Shown: positions 2,935-64,000, counted from the first letter of the stretch. The stretch is DNA of 64,000 nucleotides from Candidatus Omnitrophota bacterium (GCA_037146775.1 JBAWWL010000001.1:261464-325463); one strand, 5' to 3'. Made by a program: numbers and translations. The notes: generated by a model not told the origin, from the letters alone.

Positions 2935-3867
2935 ATGAATGATTCTTGTAGGAAAAACCCATATGTGTCGATAGTTATAATTGACTGGAAAGGTTCTGGC
3001 TCGGCGTTAAAAAAACAATTGTTAAATCAGACTTTCCAGGATTACGAAACTATTGTTGTGCAGCATGTTGCGCCGATTGCCCGGGCCAGGAATATGGGTG
3101 CAGATATTGCCAAAGGCGACATTGTAATCTTTTTTGATCACGATGTTATTCTCGGTAATGAGTATTTTCTCGAAAAACTTATCTTGCCTTTTGAGCAAAG
3201 AGCGAATGTGGGCATAATCGGACCGCGGCAGTTAGTTCCTGACGGAAACTGGATACAAAATCGTCTCAGGCAGGAAGGTCTTTATGTGTCTACTGCGTGC
3301 ATTGATGTGTTAACGGAGGCACAAGGTATCGGTGGGCCGTGTATGGCCGCTAAAACAACCGTATTCAAGGAATTGGGATATTTTAATGAATCAGTAATAA
3401 GCGCTGAAGACGGAGAAATCCTTTTTAGGTCGATAAAGATGGGATTGAAAAATTATATTGTACCGGATGCTTTTATATATCACCCTTCGCCGTCGACGTA
3501 TGCATTGATGCTGCGCCAGCAGTTTATTTACGGCCGTTCGGTAGCGAGGGTAAAAAGGTTATGTCCGGGATGGAAAGAGGGCGGAGTATATTTTAAGCAC
3601 GTAATCATTATACCGATATTTCTGCTGATACGCACGATACTGTTGCCTGTTGAAGCATGTGTCCCGCTTTCGTTCGCCGCAGGCAAGCTGCGTATTGCGC
3701 CAAGGCTGCAATTCGCGCCCCTTAAGGCGTGTGCGCTTTACCTTAAACATCTGGGGTATTGTTACGAATACGTACGTATCCGGCCGGGATATCCGCCGGT
3801 GCCTGCAATGCGCAAGTTTTCCGTTGAGAAAATTGACGAAAGAAATTGTGTAGTGCGAGAACAATAA
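2935..3867 (+). CDS. Glycosyltransferase family 2
   Basis: The N-terminus is GT-A-like (VSIVIIDWKG...DIAKGDIVIFFDHDVIL, DxD-type), with a C-terminal membrane region. Confidence 0.7.
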   Translation: MNDSCRKNPYVSIVIIDWKGSGSALKKQLLNQTFQDYETIVVQHVAPIARARNMGADIAKGDIVIFFDHDVILGNEYFLEKLILPFEQRANVGIIGPRQLVPDGNWIQNRLRQEGLYVSTACIDVLTEAQGIGGPCMAAKTTVFKELGYFNESVISAEDGEILFRSIKMGLKNYIVPDAFIYHPSPSTYALMLRQQFIYGRSVARVKRLCPGWKEGGVYFKHVIIIPIFLLIRTILLPVEACVPLSFAAGKLRIAPRLQFAPLKACALYLKHLGYCYEYVRIRPGYPPVPAMRKFSVEKIDERNCVVREQ

Positions 3868-50680: not shown

Positions 50681-50995
50681 TAATAGTTTGCGGGTATTCG
50701 GTTAAGCTGTATATAACAGATTTTTGTACAAATCGAGTTAACTTATGAAGAATCAAGAAGTTACAAACAAAAAAGTATTCTTCTGCACCTTCGGATGGCA
50801 GACGGATGTACTATAGACGGACTACGGAGAAGCTAGCTTAAACTATCCTAACAGTGGAATAACCAATGAGTTATGAAAATTAGTTAACAAGCGAACCGAA
50901 CGTAAGTAAAAAATTCGTTTGGAAGCAGCTAGATTAAGCAAAAAAGGAAGGATGGATTTGAAACTAAAAAAGCAATCAACGAATATTCTAAGATA

Positions 50996-51808
50996 ATGCA
51001 CCATCTTTATTCATTGATTAGGCGCGTATTATTTAAGATTCGAAGATATCCGGTAATGCGGCAGATAAGGGCAGGCAAAAAAATAATCATATTTAATCTG
51101 TACCGTTACTGTAATTTTAATATACCATCGGAAACATTAAATGCTTTTGAACATTTTACATTGTTAGATAATGATATGATTAGGGAAATGAAGTCTTTTT
51201 TAAAATTATCTAAGAATAAGGTTTGTTTTTTAGATGTTGGTTCTTTGTATGGAATATTTTCACTTGCCTTTACAAGCCGTAACCCTCGTGGAATAGCGTA
51301 TTCTATTGAGCCGTCACCCGAACCATTTAGGATCCTCAATCTTTGTCAGCAAAACAATCCAGATTTAAATATAAAATCATTTCAAATTGCATTGGGCGCT
51401 GATGAAGAAGAGATAAGAATGAAGTATGAATGGCAGCATTTGGTGGCTTTAGGTATCGACGAAACGAATAGTAACTATCTAAAAATAAAAACTACGACAC
51501 TAGATAATTTTATCAAGCAATATCGAATCTTTCCAGATATTATTAAAATCGACGTGGAAGGTTATGAATACCATGTTTTGGCAGGAGGGAAACGATTTTT
51601 GAAAGAACAAAGCCCAATTATTTGCCTAGAAGTACATATCCCATGGCTAGAAAGGCTTAGGGTTTCTATTGAGAAACTGCAGGAAGCAATAGTATCTTTG
51701 GATTATAAAGTCTATGATTTAGATCATAAATTAATTAAAAGTTTAATACTATTTTCTAAAAATAAAACTAATTTTAGAATAGTTTGTAGCAAATTACCAT
51801 TAAGGTAA
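50996..51808 (+). CDS. FkbM family methyltransferase
   Basis: It carries FLDVGSLYGIF...IKIDVEGYEYHVLAGG. Confidence 0.75.
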   Translation: MHHLYSLIRRVLFKIRRYPVMRQIRAGKKIIIFNLYRYCNFNIPSETLNAFEHFTLLDNDMIREMKSFLKLSKNKVCFLDVGSLYGIFSLAFTSRNPRGIAYSIEPSPEPFRILNLCQQNNPDLNIKSFQIALGADEEEIRMKYEWQHLVALGIDETNSNYLKIKTTTLDNFIKQYRIFPDIIKIDVEGYEYHVLAGGKRFLKEQSPIICLEVHIPWLERLRVSIEKLQEAIVSLDYKVYDLDHKLIKSLILFSKNKTNFRIVCSKLPLR

Positions 51809-52008
51809 CATTAAAGATGAGATTAGGGCAACATATAAATAGACTATTGTAATAATTATCATTGGGCTGTATTATTCGTATATTGTGTATGGAGAAACTC
51901 TGCGGTATGTGTTTTTTGTATGTTGGGCATGATTTAGCTTATCGTGTGTTTTTATCTAGTATCGTATCGTGATACGAAAAATGCCGTATCCAAATCTTTG
52001 AATAAACA

Positions 52009-53748
52009 ATGGGAAAAATTAAGGCTGGCATAATAAGAGAATGTAACCGCCCCGCATTGCAGTTAGCTACGGTTTTTGTGATTGTTTTGTCTACCCACCT
52101 TATCTTTGTCTTTATGGTTGGCGATTATGGATGGGATGATGGAGCTATTACGCTTGCATTTTCAAGGACTCTGGCTTATAGCTCGAAAATAGCGCTTACC
52201 CCTGTTTCGGAAGTGGTTGAGGGATTCTCTACTCCGGCCTGGATGGTGATTTTTTCATTGATAGCAAAAATATTTAGACCTTCTTTCAGCGTTTTTATCA
52301 GGTCTTCCCAGATCGTTGCGGGAGTTTGTGCTTCGATAGGCGCCTGTTTGTTTTGTCGTTTATCTGCCAAGATAATCCCTCGCGCCGCAGCTGTTTTAGC
52401 ATCGATCTTGCTATTTTGCTCGTCCTCTTTTATTAACGAAACCGCTAATGGCATGGAAAATTCATTGGGGGTAATGTTAGTTCTTTTTATAGCCACGCTC
52501 ATAGATAGGGGTAAAGATAAAAAGCCTGCGATGTTGATTAACATTGCTCTTTTCCTTCTGTCATTCATTCTTGTCACGGTGAGATTTGAATTTGCCTTCT
52601 ATCAGATTATAGCTTCTTTATTTCTAATGTCTGGATTTTCCTGCCAAGCTTTATGGATGACAACGGGATCCTTGAGTGGATTTGTATTGTTAACTCTAGT
52701 AAGAATAAATATTTTTGGTACATATTTGCCAAATACAATATGGGCTAAGTGTCAACCGCCCTACAGCTATTATCGTGGAGGCGCGGTGTTGCACTGGTAT
52801 TATTTTTTAAAAGACAGATATAATGGGTGTATGCAGATGTTCAGCCCGTTTAAGTTCTTATGGTTATCATTTATTCCTTTGTTCTTCTTAACGAGAATGC
52901 TGGGCAGGATATTGGTACCCAAGAAGTTTATCTTAACCCTGTCAGCCTTGGAACGTTATGCTATCGGATATTGCGTCGCGGTTTTAATCTTTTCGACAGT
53001 CATTGGTAAGTCTTGGAGCTATGATGCGAGACTACAACTCTCCGCGCTTCCGCTTTTATTTTATTTACTTCTTTCGATATCTTCCCGAGTCTTTCTAATT
53101 CCAAAGAAGTTGCTTTCTGCTTGTTTTATCTACGCAATGATAATATGCATTGCCGATTCAATAAACAAGTACCCACCATCTGGGGGTATGATGAATTTTA
53201 AAACAGTACATGCGTCTAACGCCGCGATAGGGTGGCGGAGCGTCACTCCTGCAAATTTTAAAATTACCGGAAATGCGGTTGAACATCTTCGGAGAGCCCT
53301 GGGGCTTGAAACGATTTCTTTCCTTGTTCCGGACATAGGAGGCTTGGCGTTGGGACACGAAAGAGTCAGAGTCTTAGATTCCGCATTGTTGGCAAATGCC
53401 TTCTTGGCAAAGTATGGATATAAAGAATTTGCTCATTACATTGAAGCACAGAAACCAGACGTCATCGTAACGCATAGCATATGGTCGGAAGTTTCTGGAA
53501 TTTATAAGTCTCAGTTCTTCAAAAGTAGCTATATTCCGATAGTCATCGACGACAACTGGGTATATGTTCGGCAGGACCACGTTGATTTTTTGAGCTCTAA
53601 AAACTTTCTTAGTCCCTTGCCCATAAATAGCTTTCAGCCTTTGCTCAGGTATAGAGGTTTTATGATCGACGAAATGTTCGTCAATTCTCAGGGTTTCAGC
53701 CCAAATGTAAAACAACTCAAGGAAGAACCCCATGAGCCCAATCATTAA
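52009..53748 (+). CDS. Large polytopic membrane protein, GT-C-fold glycosyltransferase-like
   Basis: It is 579 aa. An acidic DYGWDDG motif sits after TM1, as in the gene at 24083. Many transmembrane helices are followed by a soluble C-terminus. Confidence 0.45.
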   Translation: MGKIKAGIIRECNRPALQLATVFVIVLSTHLIFVFMVGDYGWDDGAITLAFSRTLAYSSKIALTPVSEVVEGFSTPAWMVIFSLIAKIFRPSFSVFIRSSQIVAGVCASIGACLFCRLSAKIIPRAAAVLASILLFCSSSFINETANGMENSLGVMLVLFIATLIDRGKDKKPAMLINIALFLLSFILVTVRFEFAFYQIIASLFLMSGFSCQALWMTTGSLSGFVLLTLVRINIFGTYLPNTIWAKCQPPYSYYRGGAVLHWYYFLKDRYNGCMQMFSPFKFLWLSFIPLFFLTRMLGRILVPKKFILTLSALERYAIGYCVAVLIFSTVIGKSWSYDARLQLSALPLLFYLLLSISSRVFLIPKKLLSACFIYAMIICIADSINKYPPSGGMMNFKTVHASNAAIGWRSVTPANFKITGNAVEHLRRALGLETISFLVPDIGGLALGHERVRVLDSALLANAFLAKYGYKEFAHYIEAQKPDVIVTHSIWSEVSGIYKSQFFKSSYIPIVIDDNWVYVRQDHVDFLSSKNFLSPLPINSFQPLLRYRGFMIDEMFVNSQGFSPNVKQLKEEPHEPNH

Positions 53749-53848
53749 GCGTAACAATTAAAAGCGATGAGAACAAAATGCTGATTGAGCGAAAATCTAA
53801 GGTTTACGGCAATCCCCGAAAGTGTTCCCGCACATGCATTTATGGCTG

Positions 53849-53900
53849 ACCGTTGGCGCAAGTATTGTGGGATGACTTTGGGTATTTTAAAGAAGCCCAC
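53849..53900 (+). repeat. Degenerate copy of the TTGGCG(T/C)AAGT...GATGA(T/C)TTT element
   Basis: TGACCGTTGGCGCAAGTATTGTGGGATGACTTTGGGTATTTTAAAGAAG aligns with the 5' half of the 58706 and 60482 elements. Confidence 0.4.
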
Positions 53901-54017
53901 TGATTGTGGTAATGGAGTTGTAGATGAAGCATCATGATTGTAACTCTTGAAATTATAGCTGATATCTTCTTGGCAGATACCAACTATTAGATTATATGGA
54001 GGTAGCCTTTGAATAGG

Positions 54018-54677: not shown

Positions 54678-55457
54678 ATGTTAAAGAATCTTGATATAGA
54701 TTTCATTTTAGAATTATATAGGAAATATAGTAAGGATTTGAAAAGAGTCAGGAAGCAGCAATTGGCTTTTTATCGAAATGATATTATATATAGCGAGGCA
54801 AAACGTATTTTTGCAAAATACTTGAGGCATCTGGGCATAAGAATTTCTGATTCAGCCAGGCTAAGCCCGCACTTTGATGATATCGAGGCAGAAATAACCT
54901 ATCTTTTGGTTAGAGAAAGCCGGCCGGAAACAATAGTTGAATTCTCGCCATGCGGCGGATGGTCAACAGCATGGATATTGCACGCTTTAAAAGATAATAA
55001 GTTCGGAAAGCTATATTCTTATGACATGATAGATGCATCACGAAAAACAGTCCCTCATTATTTATCTAGAAATCGATGGTCATTCATTCTCGGAGACATA
55101 AAGAATAATATCGACAAGTTACCTGCAAAAATAGACTATCTTTTTATAGACTCGGATCACTCTAAAGAATTCGCGCAGTGGTACATACAGCATATATTTC
55201 CTATGATAAAAAATAATATACCCGTAAGCGTCGATGATGTATTCCATACCAGCGATCCTTCGGAATTTTGTGGGGAGGGAGGGGTGATTGTGGACTGGCT
55301 AGAGCGTAAAAAGATTAATTATGTAACAGCTTCTCCTGCAAAGGCAATCGATAATTTTAATCGTATTGTGCAGCAAAAAAATGAATTAGGTATCAGTGCG
55401 TTGATACATACTTCGATAAACAATGCTGCTATATTTTTTCATTTTAAAACAGAGTAG
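54678..55457 (+). CDS. Methyltransferase-like protein (TylF/MycF-type O-methyltransferase fold)
   Basis: It carries ETIVEFSPCGGWSTAWIL...LFIDSDHS, as seen in Methyltransf_24/TylF-like proteins. Confidence 0.45.
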   Translation: MLKNLDIDFILELYRKYSKDLKRVRKQQLAFYRNDIIYSEAKRIFAKYLRHLGIRISDSARLSPHFDDIEAEITYLLVRESRPETIVEFSPCGGWSTAWILHALKDNKFGKLYSYDMIDASRKTVPHYLSRNRWSFILGDIKNNIDKLPAKIDYLFIDSDHSKEFAQWYIQHIFPMIKNNIPVSVDDVFHTSDPSEFCGEGGVIVDWLERKKINYVTASPAKAIDNFNRIVQQKNELGISALIHTSINNAAIFFHFKTE

Positions 55458-55476
55458 GTACGATAGGTAACATTAT

Positions 55477-56280
55477 ATGAACATAAGAGAATTACAAAAG
55501 AATTGGAATGAACTCGGCATAATAGATCCATTATGGGCGATCCTTTCTTATCCCGACAAGAAAGGAGGAAAATGGAATGCAGAAGAGTTCTTTAAATCTG
55601 GTGTCAGGGAAATATCAGAGGTTATGGATTATCTGAAAAAGATTAATATTACATATACTAACAGGAAAGCTCTTGATTTCGGATGTGGCGTGGGCCGTTT
55701 AACGCAGGCACTCGCCCCTTACTTCGATGAGATATACGGTATTGATATTTCTCCTTCAATGATTAAACTTGCAAAGAATTTTAACCGATATCCTGGTACA
55801 TGCCAGTATATTCTAAATGAATGCGATCATTTGCGGATATTACCGGACAATAGCATCGATTTTATTTATACCAACATCGTGTTCCAGCATATTGAACCCA
55901 TCTATACAAAAAGATATATAAAAGAATTTTTACGCATAATGGCGCCCGGCGCCTTAGCGACATTTCAATTAATAACTAAGCAAATTGGAAACATACATCA
56001 CAAAACAGCATTCGCAAAATTTAGAAGTTTTTTCAAGAAAGTAACTCCAAACTTTTTATTAAGATTGTATCGTAGGGTATCCAACCAGCCAGAATGTGGA
56101 GGTGGTGTGTGTGGTCAACCTATTATTGAAATGCACTGTATTAGCGAGAGTGAGATGGTAGATTTGATTCGTAATTGTGGCGGGAAAGTGCTCGATATTG
56201 TTCATAACGATGCAGCCGGTCCAGATTTCGATAGCATCCGGTGTTGCATGACAAAAAATACGGTAACCGAGAAATTCTGA
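55477..56280 (+). CDS. Class I SAM-dependent methyltransferase
   Basis: Motif I is present (ALDFGCGVGRLT) with the post-I acidic residue (GIDIS). Confidence 0.75.
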   Translation: MNIRELQKNWNELGIIDPLWAILSYPDKKGGKWNAEEFFKSGVREISEVMDYLKKINITYTNRKALDFGCGVGRLTQALAPYFDEIYGIDISPSMIKLAKNFNRYPGTCQYILNECDHLRILPDNSIDFIYTNIVFQHIEPIYTKRYIKEFLRIMAPGALATFQLITKQIGNIHHKTAFAKFRSFFKKVTPNFLLRLYRRVSNQPECGGGVCGQPIIEMHCISESEMVDLIRNCGGKVLDIVHNDAAGPDFDSIRCCMTKNTVTEKF

Positions 56281-56312
56281 AACCAGTAGGAAAGGTAATA
56301 GGCCAGAATATA

Positions 56313-56855
56313 ATGAATAGAGAAGGTTTGTTGTGTTGGGAGGACATTAAGACAAGGCAATCGATCTATCTTAATTTAGGTGGTAATGGGAATTGCCATC
56401 CGCACAAAGGTTATGAAAATTATATAGCCGTAGACATTCAACCATCGACCATGGGTTGGCATATAGAACACGATTTACGAAAACCCATTCCTTTACCAAA
56501 CGATTGTGTGGATCGGATTCTTTCCGAAGATTTTCTTGAGCATGTTACAGCAGAAGAAATGAAAAAAATTATTTGTGAATCTTTCCGTCTGCTTAAGGCG
56601 GGTGGTGTTATGAGGATTGGTGTGCCTGATTATAATAACCCCAAAGATAAACCATATCTTCAACAAGGAAAAGACCCGCGGTATCCAGAACATATTACCT
56701 TAACTTACTATGATCTTATGAAAAAAATAATAGGTGAGACGCCATTCATGCGCTATAAGTTCCGACATTATTGGGATAAGGATAAATTTATATGCGAAAA
56801 GATCGATTATACTTATGGAATGGTAAAAAGAACCAGCGATAACGATTTGAGCTGA
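56313..56855 (+). CDS. Class I SAM-dependent methyltransferase (small, Methyltransf_11-like)
   Basis: It carries LKAGGVMRIGVPD. I chose the ATG at 56313 rather than the track start at 56241, which overlaps the upstream gene. Confidence 0.55.
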   Translation: MNREGLLCWEDIKTRQSIYLNLGGNGNCHPHKGYENYIAVDIQPSTMGWHIEHDLRKPIPLPNDCVDRILSEDFLEHVTAEEMKKIICESFRLLKAGGVMRIGVPDYNNPKDKPYLQQGKDPRYPEHITLTYYDLMKKIIGETPFMRYKFRHYWDKDKFICEKIDYTYGMVKRTSDNDLS

Positions 56856-57338
56856 GAAGGGTTGGGATTGTCGAGCATATAACGGGCATGTTTAAGGATT
56901 TAATGTTTATATTATCTCGAAGATCAAAATGTACTTGGCGCAAGCTACAAACTCGAGAGGGGCATCCTTTGCATGTAACTAGTTTAGTGGTGGATTTATA
57001 TAAAGATTAACGAAAGGCATAAGCAGGCGCCAATGCTTAAGTGTCGCCTGCTTTATGGGTAGCTTCATGAAAAAAAGTCTTCATTAAGACCTTCGGCTGA
57101 CCTTATCTTCAGGTTCTACAATAATGAGACTTAGGCACGATTTATCGGGGCTGTAGTCGAATTATCCCCGAACGAAGTGAGTGGGGTACCTAATTTTCTT
57201 CAAGGAAATGATACGTTCGACAGGCTCAGTATTCCTTCAATAGGCTCAGGATGCTGAGCAGAGTCGAAGCACACCCTGAGCGAAGCCGAAGGGCGACTAA
57301 CCCATATTGATTCCTGTCTCTTCGGAAGCTCATCGAGC

Positions 57339-57573: not shown

Positions 57574-57894
57574 ATGAGAGGAGTGATAAAAGGGGCATTA
57601 GCAGAGGAGCTTCAGAATTCCCTTAGGATGAAGCGAGAATACGAAGAAGCCTTAAAAAAATTGCCTAAGGGGTGTCTTGCAGTAAGAAAGATAAGGGGTC
57701 ACAAGTATTACTATCTCGTTAAAAGAGAAGACCGCAAGGTTAAATACATTTATAAAGGAAAAATTTCTGAAGAAGAGAAAAATAAGTATGAAAAGACCAA
57801 GGTGTTACGCGCTAAATATCGCAAACTACTAGCGCAAGTTAAAAGGCAAGTTAGATTTTTAAGGAGTTCTTTACGTGGAAAAGAAGTAGTATGA
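57574..57894 (+). CDS. Small basic hypothetical protein (106 aa)
   Basis: It has strong promoter and Shine-Dalgarno signals and is Lys/Arg-rich with a coiled-coil-like region. I do not recognise the family. Confidence 0.5.
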   Translation: MRGVIKGALAEELQNSLRMKREYEEALKKLPKGCLAVRKIRGHKYYYLVKREDRKVKYIYKGKISEEEKNKYEKTKVLRAKYRKLLAQVKRQVRFLRSSLRGKEVV

Positions 57895-57956
57895 TTTATG
57901 TTTTGAGATTTTAAGGCGGTTCCATAAAGAAAAAATTTTAGATAATCTTATTCTGA

Positions 57957-58520
57957 TTGGAAGCTGGTGCTTATTCTTTTATAAAGATTATTTTTCTCCC
58001 GATCCGTATATTGAGCGTATCGTTGTTAAAAACAAGAGATATGGATTTTCTTATAGATGCACCAAATAAAATTAAGCATGAAGTTGATATCCCTGAGTTA
58101 CTTAAAGATTTAGGTTTTGTGGTAGATTTTCGCGGAGATAAAGGGTATATAAAACTTGACCATCCCGATCTTATACTTGAATTTTTAGTTCCAGAGAAAG
58201 GTAAGGGAATCGATAAACCATACCGAATTCCCGCATTTGGTATAAATGCTACTGCTCTGAGATTTTTTGGTTTCTTGTCAAACAATACCATAAAAGTTAA
58301 AATTGATGATTTTTATCTAACCTTACCACATCCCGCTAACTTTGCCCTCCATAAATTGATAATATTTCAGCGCAGAGCTAAGAAGGATAAGGCGGAAAAA
58401 GATAGGAATACTGCGATAGAAATTTTAAAAGCATTAATAAATAAAGGCGAAGCACATATCATTAAAAATGTTTTTCGTTCAGTTCACCGAAAGTGGCAAA
58501 ATAAGATACTGAAGGATTAA
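57957..58520 (+). CDS. Hypothetical protein (possible nucleotidyltransferase-fold / TA-like partner of the gene at 57574)
   Basis: It is 187 aa, 63 nt downstream of the 106-aa ORF, and starts at TTG or a later ATG. No diagnostic motif was seen, so the nucleotidyltransferase-fold idea is speculative. Confidence 0.4.
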   Translation: MEAGAYSFIKIIFLPIRILSVSLLKTRDMDFLIDAPNKIKHEVDIPELLKDLGFVVDFRGDKGYIKLDHPDLILEFLVPEKGKGIDKPYRIPAFGINATALRFFGFLSNNTIKVKIDDFYLTLPHPANFALHKLIIFQRRAKKDKAEKDRNTAIEILKALINKGEAHIIKNVFRSVHRKWQNKILKD

Positions 58521-58705
58521 AAGAAGCAGAAGAAAAGGATATTGAGGAGATATTGGCTGATGGATGACTGTGACTAAGGCTATAACTCTTGAGTCAAAAT
58601 GGCGCAGAAGGCTATATCAACGACATGGATACCCCAAAAAAATCAATGAAAATGACAGCCTGCCCCGAGCAATGTCGAAGGGTCTATATTAAAACTTTCG
58701 ACTGT

Positions 58706-58806
58706 CCGTTGGCGTAAGTGGCGAGAGATGATTTTGAAGCTTTTAAATAAGATAAATGGCTGTGAATAATAGAGTTGGCAAAGAAGGAGCTGAACGTAAG
58801 TGGAAA
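58706..58806 (+). repeat. 101-nt intergenic element, copy A (identical to 60482-60582)
   Basis: The sequence is CCGTTGGCGTAAGTGGCGAGAGATGATTTTGAAGCTTTTAAATAAGATAAATGGCTGTGAATAATAGAGTTGGCAAAGAAGGAGCTGAACGTAAGTGGAAA. It ends 28 nt before the start codon of the gene at 58834. Confidence 0.8.
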
Positions 58807-58833
58807 GGGCTTTTTGTAAAAAAAGAGAAAATA

Positions 58834-60456
58834 ATGAAAAAGTTTATTTTTAGCTCAGTTTTAATCGCGTTGCTTATTTTTTTGGGATACTTTGTGTCTT
58901 CTCGCAGAGCTGCATTTGATATTTTGATTAACGGCGGCACTATTTATGACGGGACGACCAGGGATTCCTATGTTGCCGATATAGGCATTATAGCCGATAA
59001 AATAGCGGCTATTGGCGACCTTTCAAATAAAACAGCAAAGAAAATTATCGATGCCCGAGAGTTGATTGTTACACCCGGTTTTATTGATGTACACAATCAT
59101 TCTGATCTCGTGTTTCTCTTTGCCGGCAACAAGAGGTATCTGGCCTTGATAACTCCCGCGTGGAAAGGCAATTACAATTATTTGACCCAGGGCGTCACGA
59201 CAATAGTTACTGGGCTTTGCGGCGGAGGATACGCGGACACAAAACAGTGGTTGGACATGGTCAGTCTTATAAAATACGGCACTAATGTTTATCATCTGAT
59301 ACCCTACGGTATGATCAGGGGGAAACTCTTTGGACAGGACCAGCCGCGGACCCTGACTGCCGAGCAGCTTGATACCCTTAAGAAGAGTGTGGAAAGGGAG
59401 ATGCAAAATGGTGCTATTGGCATTTCCGTGGGGTTAGAGTACGCCCCCGATTGTTTTACCACCACCGATGAATTGGCCGAGATCGCCAAGGTGGTCAATA
59501 AATACGGCGGTATTTACGACGCCCATATCCGGGATAACACCGGGACTATCCATGAGAATGGACAGCCTGGAGTGTTGCTAGCGATAAAGGAGACGATCGA
59601 GATCAGCAAACGTGCTAAGATCTCCGTACATATTTCGCATATTCAGCTCAATCTGCCATGGAACGATGTTCAGGCAAAACAGATGTATGGCTTGATAGAG
59701 GAAGCCCGGCGAGAAGGGGTGGATATAACCGCCGATCAACATCCCTACGATGTTGGGTTCGGCATCCTCTCCTATCGCCTACCGGATGAGTTTAAGACCG
59801 CTGTCGGCGTCAAGGATAAATACAAGACTCCTGAAGGTAGAGCCCTTATAAAAAAAGCCATTGAAAAGGTTTTTGTTTTCCTTGGCCCGGAAAAGATCAT
59901 GATCACTTCTTGTCCGGGGAATGAAAAATGTGAGAATAAGACCATCAAGGAGATCGCCGTGATGGAAAACAGGGATCCGGGGGCGGTTTACGTCGACCTG
60001 GTATGTATGGATTCGGCGCCTTACGCGCTTTTCTCTGAGATAAGCGAAGAAGCAAACAGAGGAAATATGCCTCATGAGTACGTTTTTACGGCTTCCGACG
60101 GCTTTACGGTTTTTGACGCTTCCAAGTCGCCGCATCCGCGTTTTTTTGGTTGTTTTCCCAGAAAGATAAGGAAATATGCGTTGGAGGAAAAGGTCCTAAG
60201 TTTAAAAGACGCCATCCGCTCCATGACCTCACTGCCTGCGGAAAAGTTCAAGATGAATCTCAGGGGAAAGATTGTTACCGGTTATTATGCGGATATTGTG
60301 GTTATTGACCTTCAGAATTTTACCGATCGTGCTACCTATTCTGATCGGGCAAAGTATTCCGAAGGCATTGAGTATCTTTTGGTAAACGGCGTGCTCGCAA
60401 TTGAAAAAGGTAAGACTACAGGCAAAAGAGGCGGCAGGGCTTTGAAATCGAGATGA
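58834..60456 (+). CDS. Amidohydrolase-superfamily enzyme, N-acyl-D-amino-acid deacylase (D-aminoacylase)-like, with N-terminal signal/anchor
   Basis: The metal-binding motif HxH is present (GFIDVHNHSD) and the length is typical of D-aminoacylases. A hydrophobic N-terminus (MKKFIFSSVLIALLIFLG) begins at the ATG at 58834. Confidence 0.75.
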   Translation: MKKFIFSSVLIALLIFLGYFVSSRRAAFDILINGGTIYDGTTRDSYVADIGIIADKIAAIGDLSNKTAKKIIDARELIVTPGFIDVHNHSDLVFLFAGNKRYLALITPAWKGNYNYLTQGVTTIVTGLCGGGYADTKQWLDMVSLIKYGTNVYHLIPYGMIRGKLFGQDQPRTLTAEQLDTLKKSVEREMQNGAIGISVGLEYAPDCFTTTDELAEIAKVVNKYGGIYDAHIRDNTGTIHENGQPGVLLAIKETIEISKRAKISVHISHIQLNLPWNDVQAKQMYGLIEEARREGVDITADQHPYDVGFGILSYRLPDEFKTAVGVKDKYKTPEGRALIKKAIEKVFVFLGPEKIMITSCPGNEKCENKTIKEIAVMENRDPGAVYVDLVCMDSAPYALFSEISEEANRGNMPHEYVFTASDGFTVFDASKSPHPRFFGCFPRKIRKYALEEKVLSLKDAIRSMTSLPAEKFKMNLRGKIVTGYYADIVVIDLQNFTDRATYSDRAKYSEGIEYLLVNGVLAIEKGKTTGKRGGRALKSR

Positions 60457-60481
60457 CCAAACAAAAAGTTTTCCTGAGGGT

Positions 60482-60582
60482 CTCTGGGTGACCGTTGGCG
60501 TAAGTGGCGAGAGATGATTTTGAAGCTTTTAAATAAGATAAATGGCTGTGAATAATAGAGTTGGCAAAGAAGGAGCTGAACG
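60482..60582 (+). repeat. 101-nt intergenic element, copy B (identical to 58706-58806)
   Basis: It matches copy A at all 101 nt. It ends 32 nt before the start codon of the gene at 60614. Confidence 0.8.
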
Positions 60583-60613
60583 TAAGTGGAAAAATGCTCC
60601 CGGAGGATTTAAC

Positions 60614-61348
60614 ATGAGAAAAATGTTTTTTGTAATACTTATTATAACAGCTATCAGCTCTTTCTATTTTGCCCAGCCGCCTTCGGCAAGAGCCGACGAA
60701 GCCGGAACATTTGTAGGTACTATTGAATCTTTCCCTTGCGGGTTCGGTCAGTTTAAGTCTGGGCCTCCTTTGTGGCCGGTCGGTATGATTGTGGTTAATG
60801 CTGATAATGGCGAAAAGAGCAATTTTCTAATAGTCAGAGATGGGTCGAGTGCCACTATCTTTTATGATGTCGATGGTAAGGTTGTTCCAGTCATGAATAA
60901 TATTAAGGGTATGAAGGATATTAGGGCTATAATAGGTAAAAGAGTAGAGGTCAAGTACGCGGTTACGGCAGAAACAATGCGTTACGCGAATAAGCAGCTT
61001 GCGATCTCGGTTCGCTTCGTTCCTGCGGATTATGTCGGGCAGCCCGGGATATCCGCAGAAGCAGGAAAACCGAATAACCCGGCGCCACAGTCATCAGGAC
61101 AGGGCGGGGTTCATTCATTTATTGGCACTATTGAATATACATCGCGCTTAGGTTTGCACATTCCGCCAGGACGCACGATCAGGATCAGTTCTGATAGAGG
61201 CGATAAACTTACGGTTTTTGTATCTAAAGACATAGCTATCAGGGATATGAATGCTGCTCCAGCTCGCATAGGCAAGAGAGCGGAAGTTAAATATTCGCCT
61301 GCAGCAAACGGCGAGAATGAGGCCATCTCATTTCGATATCTAGATTGA
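60614..61348 (+). CDS. Secreted hypothetical protein with internal tandem duplication
   Basis: It has a signal peptide (MRKMFFVILIITAISSFYFAQPPSARA), and a GGAGGA Shine-Dalgarno lies 8 nt upstream. Two roughly 90-aa repeats are present (FVGTIES...VEVKYAV and FIGTIEY...AEVKYSPA). Confidence 0.55.
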   Translation: MRKMFFVILIITAISSFYFAQPPSARADEAGTFVGTIESFPCGFGQFKSGPPLWPVGMIVVNADNGEKSNFLIVRDGSSATIFYDVDGKVVPVMNNIKGMKDIRAIIGKRVEVKYAVTAETMRYANKQLAISVRFVPADYVGQPGISAEAGKPNNPAPQSSGQGGVHSFIGTIEYTSRLGLHIPPGRTIRISSDRGDKLTVFVSKDIAIRDMNAAPARIGKRAEVKYSPAANGENEAISFRYLD

Positions 61349-61478
61349 TTTACGGCGGCTGATATTATGGAAATAAATTATGAATAAAAAAGGACGAGTT
61401 TACATCAAGACATTCGGTTGGCCAATGGGTGCAGTATTATACGACCATCGTGCCTTATCTGAGTAGGATCTGGTGAGC

Positions 61479-61545
61479 ATTGGCGTAAGTACCGCGTGAT
61501 GATTTTAGAGATTATAAAGAGAGTAAATGCTGTGGAGTTATGGAA
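61479..61545 (+). repeat. Degenerate copy of the TTGGCGTAAGT...GATGATTTT element
   Basis: ATTGGCGTAAGTACCGCGTGATGATTTTAGAGATTATAAAGAGAGTAAATGCTGTGGAG aligns with copies A and B. It lies about 97 nt upstream of the start of the gene at 61642. Confidence 0.5.
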
Positions 61546-61641
61546 AAAATGGGCAGACTGGAGGCTATTGAAGAATAGTAGAATTTATATGGTCGGAGTT
61601 CATCTGTAACGATAGTGGTAAGATAAAAATCTTAGAATACT

Positions 61642-63126
61642 ATGGAAACGAAAAAACTATTTTTATCCAAAACTAAATACCTCGATGGGATTAAATGCCA
61701 TAAGCTTCTATGGTATGAGTATAACCGCAAGGAAGACTTGCCAGAGTTTGATGCCGCTACACAGGCTATTATGGATCAGGGCAATCGCGTCGGAGAGCTA
61801 GCGCATACGCTCTTCCCTGGAGGCATTGTACTCCAAAGAGACTATATGCCAGACAAGCAGGCGGAGAAGTCCTTGGAAGCCGCCAAGCTTCGTAAACCGC
61901 TATTTGAGGCAGGGTTTGTTTATAAACAGGCCTATGCGTTAGTCGACATCCTTAACCCTGTTGCGAAGGATGCCTGGGATCTCATTGAAGTAAAAAGCTC
62001 AAGTAGCGTAAAGGACGAGCATTATAGAGACGTCGCCTTCCAGAAATATACCTATGAAGGAGCGGGCTTAAAAATTCGCAAATGTTATCTCATGTATATC
62101 AATAACCAATACGTGCGCAAAGGCGACATAGAACCTGAAAAGTTGTTTGCGACTGAAGACGTTACAAAACAAGCAGATGAGCTTATCCCGGAAATAGAAG
62201 AAAATATGGCTGATATGTTCGAGGCAATACAAAAAAAAGATGCCCCGCATGTAAAAGTCGGCCAACATTGTAGTAGTCCTTACCCTTGCCCTATTGAAGC
62301 TATATGTTGGGGTTTTTTGCCCGAAAAAGGTGATATCTTTTGTTTGTATTCGGGTAAAAAGAAGGCCTATGAGCTATTAGAGCGCGGGGTATTGAGTATT
62401 GCCGATATCAAAGAAGATGTAAAGTTGAGCGATAAGCAGAGTATTCAGGTCGAATGTCATAAAACAAGCCGTCCTTACATTGATAAGAAAGGGATAAGGG
62501 ATTTTCTAGACACGTTAGAGTATCCTCTTTATCTCCTTGACTTCGAAACGATGAACCCGGCAATACCTGCTTATGATAATTCAAGGCCGTTTGAAGCAAT
62601 CCCTTTTCAATACTCATTATATATAATCAAAGATAAAGATACAAAACCAGAGCACCACTCATATCTTGCACCAGGGGATAAAGATCCAAGGCCTGAGATC
62701 TTGAAGCAATTAAAAGCGTTGTTAGGAAATTCAGGATCGGTTATTGCTTACAACGCTACATTTGAGAAGACAACGCTTCGACATGCAAGCGAGGCATATC
62801 CTGAGTATCAAGATTGGGTGACATCGGTGGAGGAGCGCGTTATTGATTTGCTTACACCTTTCCGCGGCTTTCTTTATTACCACCCAGATCAGGGAGGGAG
62901 CGCTTCGCTTAAAAGCGTTCTTCCTGTAATGACAAAATCGAGCTACGACAATATGGAAATATCTGATGGTGGCAAGGCGAGTGTTGAGTATTGTCGTGTA
63001 ACCTTTGGAAAAGACGTTGCCGAAAACGATCGTCAGCGTATCCGCGCCGCTCTTGAGAAGTATTGTGATTTGGATACAACGGGCATGATAGAAATATTAG
63101 ATGAATTAATAAAGATTTGTAAATAG
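61642..63126 (+). CDS. DUF2779-type protein: Cas4/RecB-like PD-(D/E)xK nuclease fused to a DEDD-type 3'-5' exonuclease-like domain
   Basis: The N-terminus (LSKTKYLDGIKCHKLLWYEY) is characteristic of the family. A Cys cluster is present (CSSPYPCPIEAICW). The C-terminal half carries Exo-like blocks (LLDFETMNP; AYNATFE; YCDLD). Confidence 0.65.
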   Translation: METKKLFLSKTKYLDGIKCHKLLWYEYNRKEDLPEFDAATQAIMDQGNRVGELAHTLFPGGIVLQRDYMPDKQAEKSLEAAKLRKPLFEAGFVYKQAYALVDILNPVAKDAWDLIEVKSSSSVKDEHYRDVAFQKYTYEGAGLKIRKCYLMYINNQYVRKGDIEPEKLFATEDVTKQADELIPEIEENMADMFEAIQKKDAPHVKVGQHCSSPYPCPIEAICWGFLPEKGDIFCLYSGKKKAYELLERGVLSIADIKEDVKLSDKQSIQVECHKTSRPYIDKKGIRDFLDTLEYPLYLLDFETMNPAIPAYDNSRPFEAIPFQYSLYIIKDKDTKPEHHSYLAPGDKDPRPEILKQLKALLGNSGSVIAYNATFEKTTLRHASEAYPEYQDWVTSVEERVIDLLTPFRGFLYYHPDQGGSASLKSVLPVMTKSSYDNMEISDGGKASVEYCRVTFGKDVAENDRQRIRAALEKYCDLDTTGMIEILDELIKICK

Positions 63127-63139
63127 AGTAGAGGACTTA

Positions 63140-64000
63140 TGACTTCGCGATTTGGCTTCACAGCAATAGATAAAGAATTAGTTGGCGATAGTCGCCTTGC
63201 TGATCCCATGGGGATTCTGCCCATTTGGTCGTACTTTGGAAGGGCATTGATCCCTAATTTGACAGAACAGACGGGCCAGGCAAGGGGATTCTACTTATTG
63301 TGTTCAATATTGTCATTATATGAAAAATATGTTGAGTGGGCTGAAAAAAAGAATAATAAGATTATGCCCGTAGAGCAATTTTATATTCTAGTAGAACAGG
63401 TTTTTGCCTATGCGGTATTTTACAATACGGGTGATTGGAATCTGCGGGGCGACAGGAACGTGAAATATTTCATGAAAGACAATCCGAATCAGATAACGAT
63501 TTCATTGCATAAACAATTACTTGGGTCTCAGCTTGCTACTGGTACATGGGGGTTGTATCGTGGGGCTGCAATGAGATCAGAAATACTTGATGCTTCAGGC
63601 AAGCGTCTTACCGAGAAATTTGCTTCACTCTTCTCGTTTGAGCTTGAGCGCGAAGAATCACTTTTCCAGATAATTCATGAGGCGCATAGTAATGGTGTCC
63701 CAGGCGCAGAACTGAAGCTGAATTCACGGCTGTGTAACGAAGTGTATAAAAAATTCAGGATAGGAAAAAATAAGGAGCTTTTTTGCGATTTTTTAATAAA
63801 TAATTACCAGGTCAAAGATTTTCAGCTCATGAAAGCCGTGGCAGAAGACTTAGTGAACTATGAAATCGAAGGGAATGATTACCGAAAATTTGTAGTAAGA
63901 TATTCAGCGAAGTTTAAAGAACATGCATATGTTTTTAAAGATATTATTAAATGTGAAGACTTCATAGGCACTATTGACTCTATTTTTCCATACCTTTATT
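63140..64000 (+). CDS. Hypothetical protein, truncated at the 3' end by the window edge
   Basis: An ORF opens from the ATG at 63140 (MTSRFGFTAIDKELVG...) and runs at least 287 aa to the window end. I do not recognise the family. Confidence 0.5.

What the first reader, a model, noticed from the sequence alone, without database searches (positions are those of the whole stretch)
58706..60582. Two 100%-identical 101-nt noncoding elements precede two consecutive unrelated genes
The same 101-nt sequence occurs at 58706-58806 and 60482-60582. The two copies end 28 nt and 32 nt upstream of the start codons of unrelated genes: an amidohydrolase and a secreted tandem-domain protein. Their flanks differ completely, so this is not a segmental duplication of coding DNA.

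Each copy has internal direct sub-repeats. GTTGGC-GTAAGTGG sits at the 5' end. At the 3' end it reads GTTGGC-(15 nt)-CGTAAGTGG, which looks like two operator-like half-sites or an internally duplicated RNA element. Each copy also contains an AAGGAG and a short in-frame pseudo-N-terminus (MAVNNRVGKEGAERKWK).

Perfect identity in noncoding DNA points to recent spread or homogenisation of a cis-regulatory cassette. Candidates are a shared promoter/operator, a 5'-UTR RNA element, or a miniature mobile promoter module. I do not recognise it as any described riboswitch or repeat family.
Basis: seen in the sequence. Interest (0 to 1): 0.8.

Follow-up and report, generated by a model that had tools for sequence, protein, structure and literature searches.

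The report
Serine-recombinase attachment-site scars at miaB
The repeated 101-nt "noncoding element" is the joint left where DNA modules were spliced one after another into the start of the tRNA-modification gene miaB by a large serine recombinase, so it marks a gene-cassette array in an Omnitrophota genome and is not a shared regulatory switch.

Summary
The exact 101-nt repeat is real, but copy 2 lies at 60492-60592, not 60482-60582. It is not a pair. The window holds seven related junctions between 50745 and 61609.

Each junction has two halves. The left half is a stub of the miaB start (M..KVFIRTFG). The right half, read in another frame, is a "tail" homologous to the last ~22 codons of a large serine recombinase (LSR) gene (…SGLSxDRWRKYREMILGILK…).

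In related metagenome loci the LSR gene ends exactly at this joint. It either abuts miaB, giving a 541-aa form that stops on miaB's CQM codons, or reads into such a tail. Its 3' end also carries a replacement miaB start with its own ribosome-binding site in an overlapping frame.

The copies are therefore attL/attP-type junctions from serial LSR integration at the miaB 5' end. They delimit modules of 1-3 genes with no recombinase gene. Rfam, single-sequence folding and a consensus fold gave no support for a structured RNA, and promoter-like matches were not enriched.

This is a new member of a known kind: LSR integration into the 5' end of a MiaB/RimO-family gene, and tandem accretion of islands. 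The integron-like behaviour and a state-dependent LSR C-terminus are inferred, not shown.

The parts
50745..50841 (+). Junction J0. It has a miaB 5' stub (ATG 50745, MKNQEVTNKKVFFCTFG), a putative crossover TG at 50796-50797, and a decayed RW-type tail (GRRMYYRRTTEKLA*). It is the first junction of the array in the window.
   Evidence: Stub profile nhmmer E 1.2e-05. tblastn of LSR tails P0036/P0052 E 0.005-0.018. Frames shown.
50996..53748 (+). Module J0-J1: an FkbM-type methyltransferase (50996-51808) and a 579-aa polytopic membrane protein (52009-53748).
   Evidence: Pfam PF05050. Translation.
53828..53937 (+). Junction J1 (the diverged copy 'w4'). It has a decayed stub, TG at 53847-53848, and a type-1 tail DRWRKYCGMTLGILKK...*.
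   Evidence: blastn 71% to copy 1. nhmmer E 2e-21. tblastn to LSR tail P0022 E 3e-05. Frames.
54678..56855 (+). Module J1-J2: three SAM-methyltransferase genes.
   Evidence: Pfam Methyltransf_24, _11 and _25.
57067..57134 (+). Junction J2. It has a stub MKK(frameshift)VFIKTFG*, TG at 57098-57099, and a type-2 tail DLIFRFYNNET*, the same family as the LSR C-termini '..SADLLYRFYNI'.
   Evidence: Stub profile E 2.8e-06. Motif scan. Frames. LSR tails.
57574..58520 (+). Module J2-J3: a 106-aa protein plus an NTP_transf_8 nucleotidyltransferase. The same two-gene module lies between two junction copies in an unrelated metagenome contig (L021 1067-2111).
   Evidence: Pfam PF12281. blastn 70% identity over 1052 nt and tblastn 78% and 64% to L021. 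L021 junction copies at 840-925 and 2126-2200.
58672..58806 (+). It has a decayed stub (ATG 58672, frameshifted, ..VYIKTFDC), TG at 58703-58704, and a type-1 tail VRWRKWREMILKLLNKINGCE* ending at 58769. A further 37 nt follow that include the split repeat of GTTGGCGTAAGTGG.
58834..60456 (+). Module J3-J4: an amidohydrolase gene with a signal-peptide-like N-terminus. Its TGA stop overlaps the ATG of the next miaB stub (ATGA).
   Evidence: Pfam Amidohydro_3 and Amidohydro_1. Sequence.
60453..60592 (+). Junction J4, which contains the true copy 2 (60492-60592). It has a stub MTKQKVFLRVSG* (ATG 60453), TG at 60489-60490, and a type-1 tail DRWRKWREMILKLLNKINGCE* ending at 60555.
60614..61348 (+). 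Module J4-J5: a 244-aa protein with a signal-peptide-like N-terminus and no Pfam match.
61380..61476 (+). Junction J5. It has a clean stub MNKKGRVYIKTFG (ATG 61380), TG at 61419-61420, and a tail GQWVQYYTTIVPYLSRIW*, the same as the C-terminus of LSR P0112 (..GRWVQYYTTIVPYLSRIR).
   Evidence: Stub profile E 5.6e-05. Frames. P0112 tail.
61455..61609 (+). Junction J6 (the diverged copy 'w3'). It has TG at 61474-61475 and a type-1 tail EHWRKYRVMILEIIKRVNAVE...*.
   Evidence: the repeat finder 76%. nhmmer E 5.9e-19. blastn 89% over 62 nt to the L017 copy. Frames.
61642..64000 (+). Start of a large module after J6. It begins with a DUF2779/Cas4-like gene (61642-63126) followed by an ORF that runs off the window. 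In the same genome it continues for at least 22 kb with PLD-like, SNF2 helicase, HTH_17, type I R-M and C5-methylase/HATPase/Z1/HNH genes.
   Evidence: Pfam PF11074. L024 and L027 match the window with 0 mismatches over 4082 nt.

Best explanation
Each copy is an attachment-site junction (attL/attP-type) left by a large serine recombinase (LSR) that integrates DNA into the first codons of miaB, at the codons for ..IRTFG|CQMN.

**Anatomy (shown).**
- Left of a conserved TG is a stub of the miaB 5' end.
- Right of it is the left end of the inserted DNA. Its first ~20 codons complete the LSR reading frame whenever an LSR gene lies immediately upstream (the 'tail', ..RWRKYREMILGILK..).

**How the elements are built (shown in related loci).**
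- The LSR gene is the last gene of its element and points at miaB.
- When it abuts miaB it terminates on miaB's own codons (..SGLSDAR-TGA, 541 aa).
- Its 3' end encodes, in an overlapping frame and behind a GAGGA ribosome-binding site, a replacement MiaB N-terminus (MPNQESKKSYEFFAPKVFIRTFG), so miaB stays intact after insertion.

**How the array formed (inferred).**
- Repeated integration next to miaB pushes older insertions upstream.
- This gives the array of seven junctions (50.7-61.6 kb) that separate modules of one to three co-oriented genes.
- The 101-nt perfect identity of J3 and J4 is a recent homogenisation or re-use of one left-end module. Its left edge lies 1 nt from the predicted crossover.

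The anatomy and the homologies are shown. The crossover position, current activity, and movement of the recombinase-less modules in trans are inferred.
For: 1. A profile of the translated copies retrieved a 44-aa ORF (P0001, E 3.6e-11). On its contigs (L017-19) the same DNA profile hits both the 3' end of an LSR gene (Resolvase+Recombinase+Zn_ribbon_recom, 563 aa; E 5e-18) and a second copy one gene further on (E 3e-22).
2. 120 LSR homologues (60-100% identity) are conserved up to '..SGLS' and then diverge. 54 end x-(R/K)-stop, 16 have RW-type tails, 16 have LxFRLY-type tails and 3 have DPWF-type tails. Tails of the first two types also occur at junctions in the window; no DPWF-type tail was found there.
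3. L022: a 541-aa LSR abuts a gene that passes the MiaB equivalog cut-off (TIGR01574, 484 bits vs 355). The stop of the LSR is miaB's 'TGC CAG ATG A' read +1. The MiaB frame opens inside the LSR gene.
4. The ATG plus SD for that alternative frame is conserved in 5 of 5 LSR 3' ends examined.
5. L020 and L021: LSR with tail, then 1-3 genes, then intact miaB-miaA-hflX-hrcA-grpE-dnaK. L020 has an internal stub|tail junction between two Fic genes.
6. Window stubs read MTKQKVFLRVSG, MNKKGRVYIKTFG, MKNQEVTNKKVFFCTFG, VYIKTFDC and KKVFIKTFG. In L009 the stub is a complete native start, MKKDTKKVFIRTFG, directly after the upstream gene.
7. The tail shows coding-type constraint in the LSR frame. 17 of 19 third positions vary against 10-11 of 19 for first and second positions. 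33% of differing codon pairs are synonymous against 15-17% in the other frames. The Leu codon appears as TTA, TTG, CTG and CTA.
8. The same two-gene module is flanked by junctions both in the window and in L021, with different neighbours.
9. No RNA structure or Rfam family was found.
Against: - No LSR gene and no intact miaB are present in the window or in the 22 kb downstream that could be reached. The array's predicted end in this genome has not been seen.
- Several left half-sites (J1, J4, J6) are badly decayed, so most junctions here may be dead scars.
- LSR att sites normally share only a few bases. Here one LSR family is found next to three unrelated tail families, which is unexplained.
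- Excision, circular forms and empty sites were not observed.
- The recombinase-less modules end in short native-like miaB starts, not the long LSR-embedded version. They are therefore not simple deletions of complete elements, and their origin is open.
- A 101-nt exact repeat in a metagenome assembly could in principle come from a chimeric join. A second assembly of the same genome breaks inside the amidohydrolase gene at window 59919.
Confidence: 0.85

Rival explanations
1. A stronger version of the best explanation. The array is an active, integron-like cassette stack. Because the left arms of attP and attB are the same miaB-like sequence, attL is equivalent to attP and attR to attB. Any [stub|tail] junction could then recombine with the single [stub|miaB] site without a directionality factor. 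New cassettes would enter only next to miaB and leave as nested circles (last in, first out). Recombinase-less one-gene modules would be moved in trans. The LSR C-terminal tail, present only when the enzyme's gene is followed by element DNA (excised circle or internal position), would tune the direction or level of the reaction.
For: - The left arms of LSR-borne and native sites are identical over ATCCGGACTTTCGG plus TG.
- Modules of 1-3 genes with no recombinase gene, each carrying both arms and its own miaB start codon, sit between LSR and miaB in L020 and L021 and in the window.
- The same module occurs in two arrays.
- The tail is under protein-level constraint.
- 54 tail-less versus 35 tailed LSR forms were counted.
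Against: - All of this is inferred from static sequence.
- Many junctions in the window are decayed.
- No circular junction, empty site or strain polymorphism was observed.
- Identical LSR proteins found in 8 contigs showed only one context.
- Tolerance of three unrelated right arms by one enzyme family is untested.
Confidence: 0.3
2. One reading: a shared cis-regulatory cassette (promoter/operator or 5'-UTR leader) that was copied in front of unrelated genes and controls them.
For: - Copies lie 22-90 nt upstream of co-oriented genes.
- A weak sigma-70-like match (TTTAAA-17-AATAAT) lies inside the identical copies.
- A short motif TA(A/G)GGTTG after the tail stop is shared by several copies.
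Against: - Promoter-like matches are not enriched over shuffles (31 vs 32.2).
- The conserved core varies mainly at every third base and translates to the LSR C-terminus.
- The same sequence forms the end of LSR genes, where it cannot be a leader.
- J5 is followed by no gene at all, only by J6.
- A secondary promoter role for read-out into cargo is not excluded.
Confidence: 0.05
3. A structured RNA, such as an unrecognised riboswitch or leader or a small RNA gene.
For: Sequence is conserved across genomes in an intergenic position.
Against: - No Rfam hit at gathering thresholds or at E<=1.
- Minimum free energies equal those of shuffles.
- RNAalifold on 11 copies gives 0 pairs and 0 covariation.
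Confidence: 0.02
4. Integron attC sites, or a MITE/REP-type repeat.
For: The region is an array of co-oriented, unrelated one-gene modules separated by a ~100-nt repeat.
Against: - The repeat has no imperfect-palindrome or hairpin architecture on either strand. The bottom strand folds at -2.1 kcal/mol with z +1.26, and the repeat finder reported no inverted repeats at the copies.
- No tyrosine (IntI-type) integrase was detected among the ORFs scanned in the 41-64 kb part of the window or among the genes listed for the related loci; the first 41 kb of the window was not annotated.
- The repeat has no terminal inverted repeats or target-site duplications.
- The repeat is homologous to a serine recombinase gene end and to miaB.
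Confidence: 0.02
5. Assembly artefact: the exact identity, or the order of modules, results from a chimeric join of strain variants through a shared repeat.
For: - The source is a metagenome-assembled genome.
- An independent assembly's contig ends at window 59919, between the two copies.
Against: - That break is 1.1 kb from copy 1 and 0.57 kb from copy 2, not at a repeat.
- The overlapping 4082 nt, which include copy 2, J5 and J6, are identical in the second assembly.
- Arrays with the same architecture occur in many independent contigs.
Confidence: 0.03

Closest known systems
Serine-recombinase integration of Bcep22-like phage JC1 into the 5' end of rimO (PMC9144972)
   Same: A large serine recombinase targets the 5' end of a MiaB/RimO-family methylthiotransferase gene. 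In related Burkholderia prophages the integrase gene overlaps rimO (paper text).
   Different: - The target here is miaB (TIGR01574 equivalog), not rimO.
- JC1's attP lies 41 bp upstream of its integrase gene, whereas here the site overlaps the 3' end of the LSR gene.
- The elements here carry cargo or defence genes, or are ICE-like, and are not phages.
- The LSR has at most ~33% identity to any phage LSR in the phage collection.
- No tandem arrays are described for JC1.
dusA-specific integrases and their genomic islands (Farrugia et al. 2015, PMC4482086)
   Same: The islands insert in the 5' end of a tRNA-modification gene and replace that 5' end with sequence supplied by the island (paper text). 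That paper also notes a MiaB-like (rimO) target in Polaromonas.
   Different: - Those integrases are tyrosine recombinases.
- There is no dual-coding overlap with the integrase gene.
- There are no cassette-size arrays.
SCC elements and CcrAB/CcrC at rlmH (orfX) in staphylococci (own knowledge)
   Same: Large serine recombinases insert cassettes at one end of a conserved RNA-methyltransferase gene. Tandem composites include recombinase-less cassettes separated by direct-repeat integration-site sequences.
   Different: - The SCC target is the 3' end of rlmH.
- The SCC repeats are ~15-20 nt, not ~100 nt.
- The ccr genes are internal to SCC and do not overlap the att site.
Tycheposons and island accretion in Prochlorococcus (bioRxiv 10.1101/2020.12.28.424599); CIME/ICE accretion in Streptococcus thermophilus (own knowledge)
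   Same: Successive integrations at one site push older elements outward. The islands become arrays separated by partial copies of the target, with degenerate remnants, and some elements use large serine recombinases (paper text). Recombinase-less modules flanked by att sites are known as cis-mobilisable elements.
   Different: - The targets there are tRNA genes or the 3' ends of genes.
- The recombinases are mostly tyrosine recombinases.
- The repeats are target fragments only, not a composite of a target stub and a recombinase tail.
Integrons (IntI, attI, attC)
   Same: It works like an integron in outline: a fixed insertion point, an array of co-oriented promoter-less one-gene modules, and a ~100-nt repeat per module.
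   Different: - The recombinase family differs (serine, not tyrosine).
- There is no attC hairpin.
- The insertion point lies inside a housekeeping gene whose start is regenerated.
- It is not a member of the integron family.
Integration-dependent immunity of mycobacteriophages BPs/Brujita/Charlie (Broussard et al. 2013, own knowledge)
   Same: The attP site lies inside a phage gene, so the protein's C-terminus differs between the integrated and excised states.
   Different: - There the affected gene is the repressor, whose C-terminal degradation tag is removed, and the integrase is a tyrosine recombinase.
- Here the affected gene is the recombinase itself, and the function of its tail is unknown.

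Membership tests
Att junction of a large-serine-recombinase integrative element | The sequence adjoins or continues a large serine recombinase gene, or is homologous to a site that does. | tested here: met
   The DNA profile of the copies hits the 3' ends of LSR genes in L017, L020 and L021 (E 5e-18 to 5e-20). The LSR has Resolvase+Recombinase+Zn_ribbon_recom domains.
Att junction of a large-serine-recombinase integrative element | The junction is a hybrid of target-gene sequence and element sequence, with the switch at one point. | tested here: met
   miaB start-codon stubs lie left of a conserved TG and tails lie right of it, in 7 window junctions and 9 junctions in other loci. The LSR|miaB and stub|miaB joints switch at the same TG.
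Att junction of a large-serine-recombinase integrative element | An intact (regenerated) target gene lies at the proximal end of the insertion. | tested here: inconclusive
   Met in L020, L021 and L022 (MiaB equivalog scores of 402-484 bits). Not reached in the window's own genome, where there is no miaB or LSR up to ~22 kb past J6.
Att junction of a large-serine-recombinase integrative element | Recombination is demonstrated by a circular form, an empty site, or an in-vitro reaction. | not testable with these tools
   This needs reads or experiments. Only static contigs were available.
Cis-mobilisable (recombinase-less) elements / accretion arrays | DNA segments are bounded by att-type sites in direct orientation and lack their own recombinase. 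| tested here: met
   This applies to modules J0-J1 through J4-J5 in the window and to L020 3620-5539 and 5539-6916.
Cis-mobilisable (recombinase-less) elements / accretion arrays | The segments are mobilised in trans by a resident recombinase. | not testable with these tools
   There is only indirect support: the same 106-aa + NTP_transf_8 module is bounded by junctions in two unrelated arrays.
Integron attC | An imperfect inverted-repeat (R''-L''...L'-R') hairpin of the bottom strand. | tested here: not met
   Folds of both strands are no better than shuffles, and no inverted repeats were reported at the copies.
Integron attC | An associated IntI tyrosine integrase and attI site. | tested here: not met
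   No tyrosine recombinase was found among the genes scanned in the 41-64 kb part of the window or listed for the related loci; the first 41 kb of the window was not annotated. The associated recombinase in the related loci is a serine recombinase.
Riboswitch / structured cis-regulatory RNA | A conserved secondary structure with covariation, or a match to a curated RNA family. | tested here: not met
   Rfam gave no match at any junction. RNAalifold gave 0 pairs on 11 copies. Fold z-scores are about 0.
Promoter/operator cassette | Promoter elements above background and a transcription start site. | tested here: inconclusive
   There is only a 9/12 sigma-70-like match, with no enrichment over shuffles. 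Transcription start sites cannot be mapped here, and Omnitrophota promoter rules are unknown.

The most novel reading that the evidence does not exclude
A widespread large-serine-recombinase family (Omnitrophota, Nitrospirota, Elusimicrobia, Saganbacteria and Pseudomonadota MAGs) runs an integron-like, last-in-first-out cassette stack at the start of miaB.

- attP mimics the target on its left arm, so attL is equivalent to attP and attR to attB. Integration and excision are then the same reaction.
- One-gene cassettes without a recombinase, including defence genes, are shuttled in trans.
- The recombinase's own C-terminal ~22 residues are supplied by whatever lies across the joint. This gives the enzyme a built-in read-out of whether it is excised, internal or terminal in the array, and would replace a separate directionality factor.
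Probability: 0.25. Interest if true: 0.8.

Novelty: new member of a known kind. Interest (0 to 1): 0.55.

Why it matters
- It turns an apparent 'regulatory repeat' into a map of a mobile-DNA hotspot. The last 13 kb of the window, and at least 22 kb beyond it, are horizontally acquired modules stacked at miaB, including restriction-modification and other defence-type genes.
- It identifies an apparently undescribed, highly conserved LSR family (60-100% identity across several phyla) with a well-defined natural target. Its att site is triple-duty: it holds the recombination site, the recombinase C-terminus and a replacement start for the target gene.
- Such enzymes are of practical interest as site-specific integrases.
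- If the recombinase-less one-gene modules really move, this would be a serine-recombinase counterpart of the integron.
- For annotation, it explains spurious N-terminal extensions and 30-50-aa ORF calls at these joints.

Tried and rejected
- **Rfam**, gathering thresholds on the whole window and E<=1 on 50.6-61.8 kb: nothing relevant.
- **RNA folding** of single copies on both strands and a consensus fold of 11 copies: no structure.
- **Integron attC, MITE or REP idea:** no hairpin and no inverted repeats.
- **Sigma-54 promoter, ops/JUMPstart-like elements, wHTH gene N-terminus:** considered from memory, then dropped once the LSR homology appeared.
- **Promoter/terminator scan:** no enrichment.
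- **Exact-pattern scan of genome contigs:** 15 hits, of which only 3 (two Omnitrophota MAGs) were real and 12 were chance.
- **Metagenome scan pattern:** too strict (GATGAYTTT misses GATGATATT).
- **Look-ups of the amidohydrolase protein** (both starts): not on record.
- **Contexts of an LSR seen on 8 contigs** (P0100), checked for cassette polymorphism: all the same.
- **Walking downstream of the window** via DUF2779 and HsdR: reached +22 kb without finding the end of the array.
- **Test of whether tails are diverged copies of the miaB sequence right of the crossover:** not significant overall. Only the first ~9 nt of one tail family mimic CCAGATGAA.
- **Search for the SAM-methyltransferase that precedes miaB in L009** inside the window array: no close homologue.
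- **Literature searches** for serine recombinase+miaB, Omnitrophota+serine recombinase and miaB+attB+integrase: no description of this system, only the rimO and dusA precedents.
Full report
**1. Observation.**

The sequence CCGTTGGCGTAAGTGG…CGTAAGTGGAAA (101 nt) occurs twice with no mismatch, at 58706-58806 and 60492-60592. Identity ends abruptly on both sides. A 32-nt core is not expected by chance (0 in 100 shuffles).

With correct coordinates, the copies end 28 and 22 nt before the ATGs of an amidohydrolase gene (58834-60456) and of a 244-aa gene for a protein with a signal-peptide-like N-terminus (60614-61348).

The internal sub-repeat, the AAGGAG and the in-frame upstream ATG are all there. 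But the pair is part of a larger family. Diverged copies lie at 61455-61554 and 53828-53927.

**2. Not an RNA, and not demonstrably a promoter.**

- Rfam finds nothing relevant.
- Folds of either strand are no better than shuffles.
- RNAalifold on eleven homologous copies predicts no pair at all.
- A 9/12 sigma-70-like match lies inside the copy, but such matches are no more frequent in the region than in shuffles.

**3. The core is coding-like.**

An exact-pattern scan of 185,579 species genomes gave true homologues only in two Candidatus Omnitrophota MAGs (L003 and L013 on one contig, and L009). The other 12 hits share nothing beyond the pattern. One metagenome contig (L016) was added by a second scan.

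Across copies, the differences fall mainly on every third base. In one frame all copies read (D/E)RWRK(Y/W)REMILGILK(R/K)…. One Leu codon appears as TTA, TTG, CTG and CTA.

Quantified over eleven non-identical copies:
- 17 of 19 third positions vary, against 10-11 of 19 first and second positions.
- 33% of differing codon pairs are synonymous in this frame, against 15-17% in the other two frames.

Yet most copies have no start codon and often carry a stop a few codons upstream.

**4. The tail of a large serine recombinase.**

A profile of the translated copies found one 44-aa ORF (P0001, E 3.6e-11). On its contigs (L017-L019) the DNA profile of the element hits two places:
- the 3' end of a 563-aa large serine recombinase gene (Resolvase, Recombinase and Zn_ribbon_recom domains; C-terminus …KSLSGLSVDRWCKYRVMILGILKLLNDGDPKS);
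- a second copy one gene (an α/β-hydrolase) further downstream.

This LSR belongs to a large, highly conserved family: 1138 hits, the best 120 at 61-100% identity. They are named from Omnitrophota, Nitrospirota, Elusimicrobia, Saganbacteria, Aureabacteria and Pseudomonadota MAGs.

Their C-termini are conserved up to …SGLS and then diverge:

| C-terminal form | Count |
|---|---|
| Stop after x-(R/K) (the 541-aa form) | 54 |
| RW-type tails (including the element studied here) | 16 |
| LxFRLY-type tails | 16 |
| DPWF-type tails | 3 |
| Truncated or otherwise not classified | 31 |

Something therefore recombines inside the last codons of this gene.

**5. The target is the start of miaB.**

In L022, a 541-aa LSR directly abuts a gene that passes NCBI's MiaB equivalog threshold (TIGR01574, 484 bits against a cut-off of 355). 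In L020 and L021, a tailed LSR is followed by one to three genes and then by miaB-(TPR/SPOR)-miaA-hflX-hrcA-grpE-dnaK.

At the L022 joint the DNA reads …ATC CGG ACT TTT GGA TGC CAG ATG AAC…, which encodes …IRTFGCQMN…. Read one base over, in the LSR frame, this gives S-G-L-L-D-A-R-stop. That explains all 54 short forms.

The MiaB frame opens inside the LSR gene (MPEKSKTYEKSAPRVYIRTFGCQMN). An ATG preceded by GAGGA or CAGGAG in that frame is present in all five LSR 3' ends examined. So the element carries a replacement miaB start overlapping the end of its recombinase gene.

**6. Every copy is a stub|tail joint.**

The 25-40 nt to the left of each copy, read in the miaB frame, is a miaB start:

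| Locus / junction | Stub |
|---|---|
| L009 | MKKDTKKVFIRTFG (a complete native start directly after the upstream methyltransferase gene) |
| L003 | KVFLRTFG |
| L016 | KQVYVRTFGC |
| Window J4 | MTKQKVFLRVSG (its ATG overlaps the amidohydrolase TGA) |
| Window J3 | VYIKTFDC |

A motif scan, a stub profile and tblastn with all LSR tails then revealed three more junctions in the window with other tails:
- J2 (57067-57134), with the tail DLIFRFYNNET*, of the LxFRLY family.
- J5 (61380-61476), with the tail GQWVQYYTTIVPYLSRIW*, the same as the C-terminus of LSR P0112.
- J0 (50745-50841), with a decayed RW-type tail.

No further stub lies upstream of 50.7 kb. The window thus holds seven junctions, all on the + strand. 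They separate these modules:
- FkbM methyltransferase + membrane protein
- three methyltransferases
- 106-aa protein + NTP_transf_8
- amidohydrolase
- secreted protein
- an empty interval between J5 and J6
- a large defence-type island starting with DUF2779

The 106-aa + NTP_transf_8 module recurs between two junction copies in an unrelated contig, L021 (70% DNA identity over 1052 nt), with different neighbours. Other loci show the same architecture:
- L020 has LSR|tail-Fic-146 aa-stub|tail-Fic-stub|miaB.
- L023 has LSR|tail followed by a six-gene module that includes ABC-transporter genes, then stub|tail.

**7. Mechanism.**

Shown:
- the anatomy of the joints;
- the homology to the LSR 3' end and the miaB 5' end;
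- the dual-coding overlap;
- the short and long LSR forms;
- arrays that end at miaB in other genomes.

Inferred:
- The LSR recombines attP (LSR end | tail) with attB (miaB start | rest of miaB) at or near the conserved TG. In attP this TG is flanked by the palindrome CGGT-TG-ACCG.
- Each integration regenerates miaB and displaces the previous start, together with older insertions, upstream.
- Because the left arms of attP and attB are the same sequence, every stub|tail joint is P-like and the one stub|miaB joint is B-like. This would allow nested excision and trans-mobilisation of recombinase-less modules.
- The tail gives the LSR a different C-terminus depending on what lies across the joint.

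The left edge of the 101-nt perfect identity lies 1 nt after the TG. This fits a site-specific origin or a conversion tract bounded by the joint, but the cause of the perfect identity is not settled.

**8. What does not fit or remains open.**

- Neither an LSR nor miaB was found in the window or in 22 kb downstream.
- Several left arms are decayed.
- Modules end in short native-like miaB starts, not the long LSR-embedded version.
- One LSR family is associated with three unrelated right arms.
- A test for homology between tails and the miaB sequence right of the crossover was negative overall.
- Within the 101 nt, the 14-mer GTTGGCGTAAGTGG recurs split by 15-16 nt. Only a short GGTTG motif at that place is shared with other copies.

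**9. Comparison with known systems.**

- Integration by a serine recombinase into the 5' end of rimO, a MiaB-family gene, with the integrase gene overlapping rimO, is described for Bcep22-like phage JC1 and related prophages (PMC9144972).
- Replacement of a target gene's 5' end by island sequence is described for dusA-specific (tyrosine) integrases (PMC4482086).
- Arrays of elements separated by partial target copies, with degenerate remnants, are described for tycheposons (bioRxiv 10.1101/2020.12.28.424599). From my own knowledge they are also described for SCC composites at rlmH and for CIME/ICE accretion.
- The present LSR is at most ~33% identical to any phage LSR in the phage collection. 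In the PDB its N-terminal catalytic domain matches best to the TP901-1 integrase fragment (E 1.2e-24, residues 2-132), and the only near-full-length match is SprA/YokA of SPβ (E 2.8e-21, residues 36-488).
- Three literature searches found no description of a miaB-targeting LSR or of this system in Omnitrophota.

It is not an integron. It has no attC hairpin, and no IntI-type integrase was seen among the genes that were scanned. Even so, it may work like one.

**10. Verdict.**

The regulatory or RNA interpretation is not supported.

The element is an att-type junction of a large-serine-recombinase system that stacks gene modules at the start of miaB. That makes it a new member of a known kind. 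The integron-like reading is inferred and would be more novel.

The organism is a Candidatus Omnitrophota MAG.

Noticed in passing
L017 4420-4623 (- strand); L023 ~3283-3313 (- strand): Inverted remnants of the LSR 3' end (78% aa identity to LSR residues 488-555 in L017) carry an LxFRLY-type tail. They lie 3-4.5 kb upstream of the intact LSR gene, so inverted att-like sites bracket the LSR and 1-3 genes (DUF5677 and others). This could be an invertible segment or a head-to-head relic.
   Followed up: no
window 61642-64000 and beyond (L024 and L027, which match the window over 4082 nt): After J6 comes a co-oriented island of at least 22 kb. It holds a DUF2779/Cas4-like gene, a 412-aa gene, a PLD-like 640-aa gene, an SNF2 helicase of 1279 aa, HTH_17, a type I R-M system (HsdR, S, a 191-aa gene, HsdM), and then a C5 DNA methylase with HATPase_c_3, Z1 and HNH. 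It looks like stacked defence systems. No further junction, LSR or miaB was seen.
   Followed up: partly
window 59919: A second public assembly of the same genome (GCA_964613555.1, contig CAZTHQ010000016.1, 78 kb) ends here, inside the amidohydrolase gene between the two identical copies. The 4082 nt it shares with the window have 0 mismatches.
   Followed up: partly
window 58774-58803 and 60560-60589: Inside the identical module, the 14-mer GTTGGCGTAAGTGG (the R-W-R-K-W codons) recurs, split by 15-16 nt that contain AAGGAG. This is not conserved in other copies, apart from a TA(A/G)GGTTG motif after the tail stop. It is unexplained.
   Followed up: partly
window 60548-61348: NCBI annotates the secreted-protein gene as 266 aa, starting inside the repeat (P0124). 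Another source calls it as 244 aa (P0123). The junction's open frame causes spurious N-terminal extensions, and elsewhere it produces 44-aa ORF calls such as P0001.
   Followed up: yes
L013 2972-3373: A chimeric ORF fuses the N-terminus of the SAM-methyltransferase that precedes miaB in L009 (MKQWYE…GECDFIE) to the last ~95 codons of an LSR. This is a deletion scar. The genes after that junction are DUF4917/SIR2-like and HamA (defence-type).
   Followed up: partly
protein P0028 (from the LSR homologue search): A 551-aa gene call is an in-frame LSR::MiaB fusion (…FFAPKVFIRTFGCQMNDADSE…, with a UPF0004 domain). It is presumably a frameshift or assembly error within the dual-coding overlap.
   Followed up: no
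L022 2193-4678: In that genome the target miaB is immediately followed by a second methylthiotransferase that scores as MtaB (TIGR01579, 396 bits).
   Followed up: no
window 1-50700: Almost all long ORFs are on the + strand. The 41-50 kb stretch encodes glycan-biosynthesis-type proteins: PP-loop ATPase, HisF-like, esterase, SBF transporter, FkbM methyltransferase and a B12-radical-SAM enzyme. The first 41 kb was not annotated here.
   Followed up: no
L017 10211-20135: Downstream of the second junction copy lie a 1578-aa protein, a MerR/HTH_17 protein, TraG_N, a relaxase-like protein and a T4SS coupling protein. Some members of this element family therefore look like integrative conjugative elements.
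   Followed up: no
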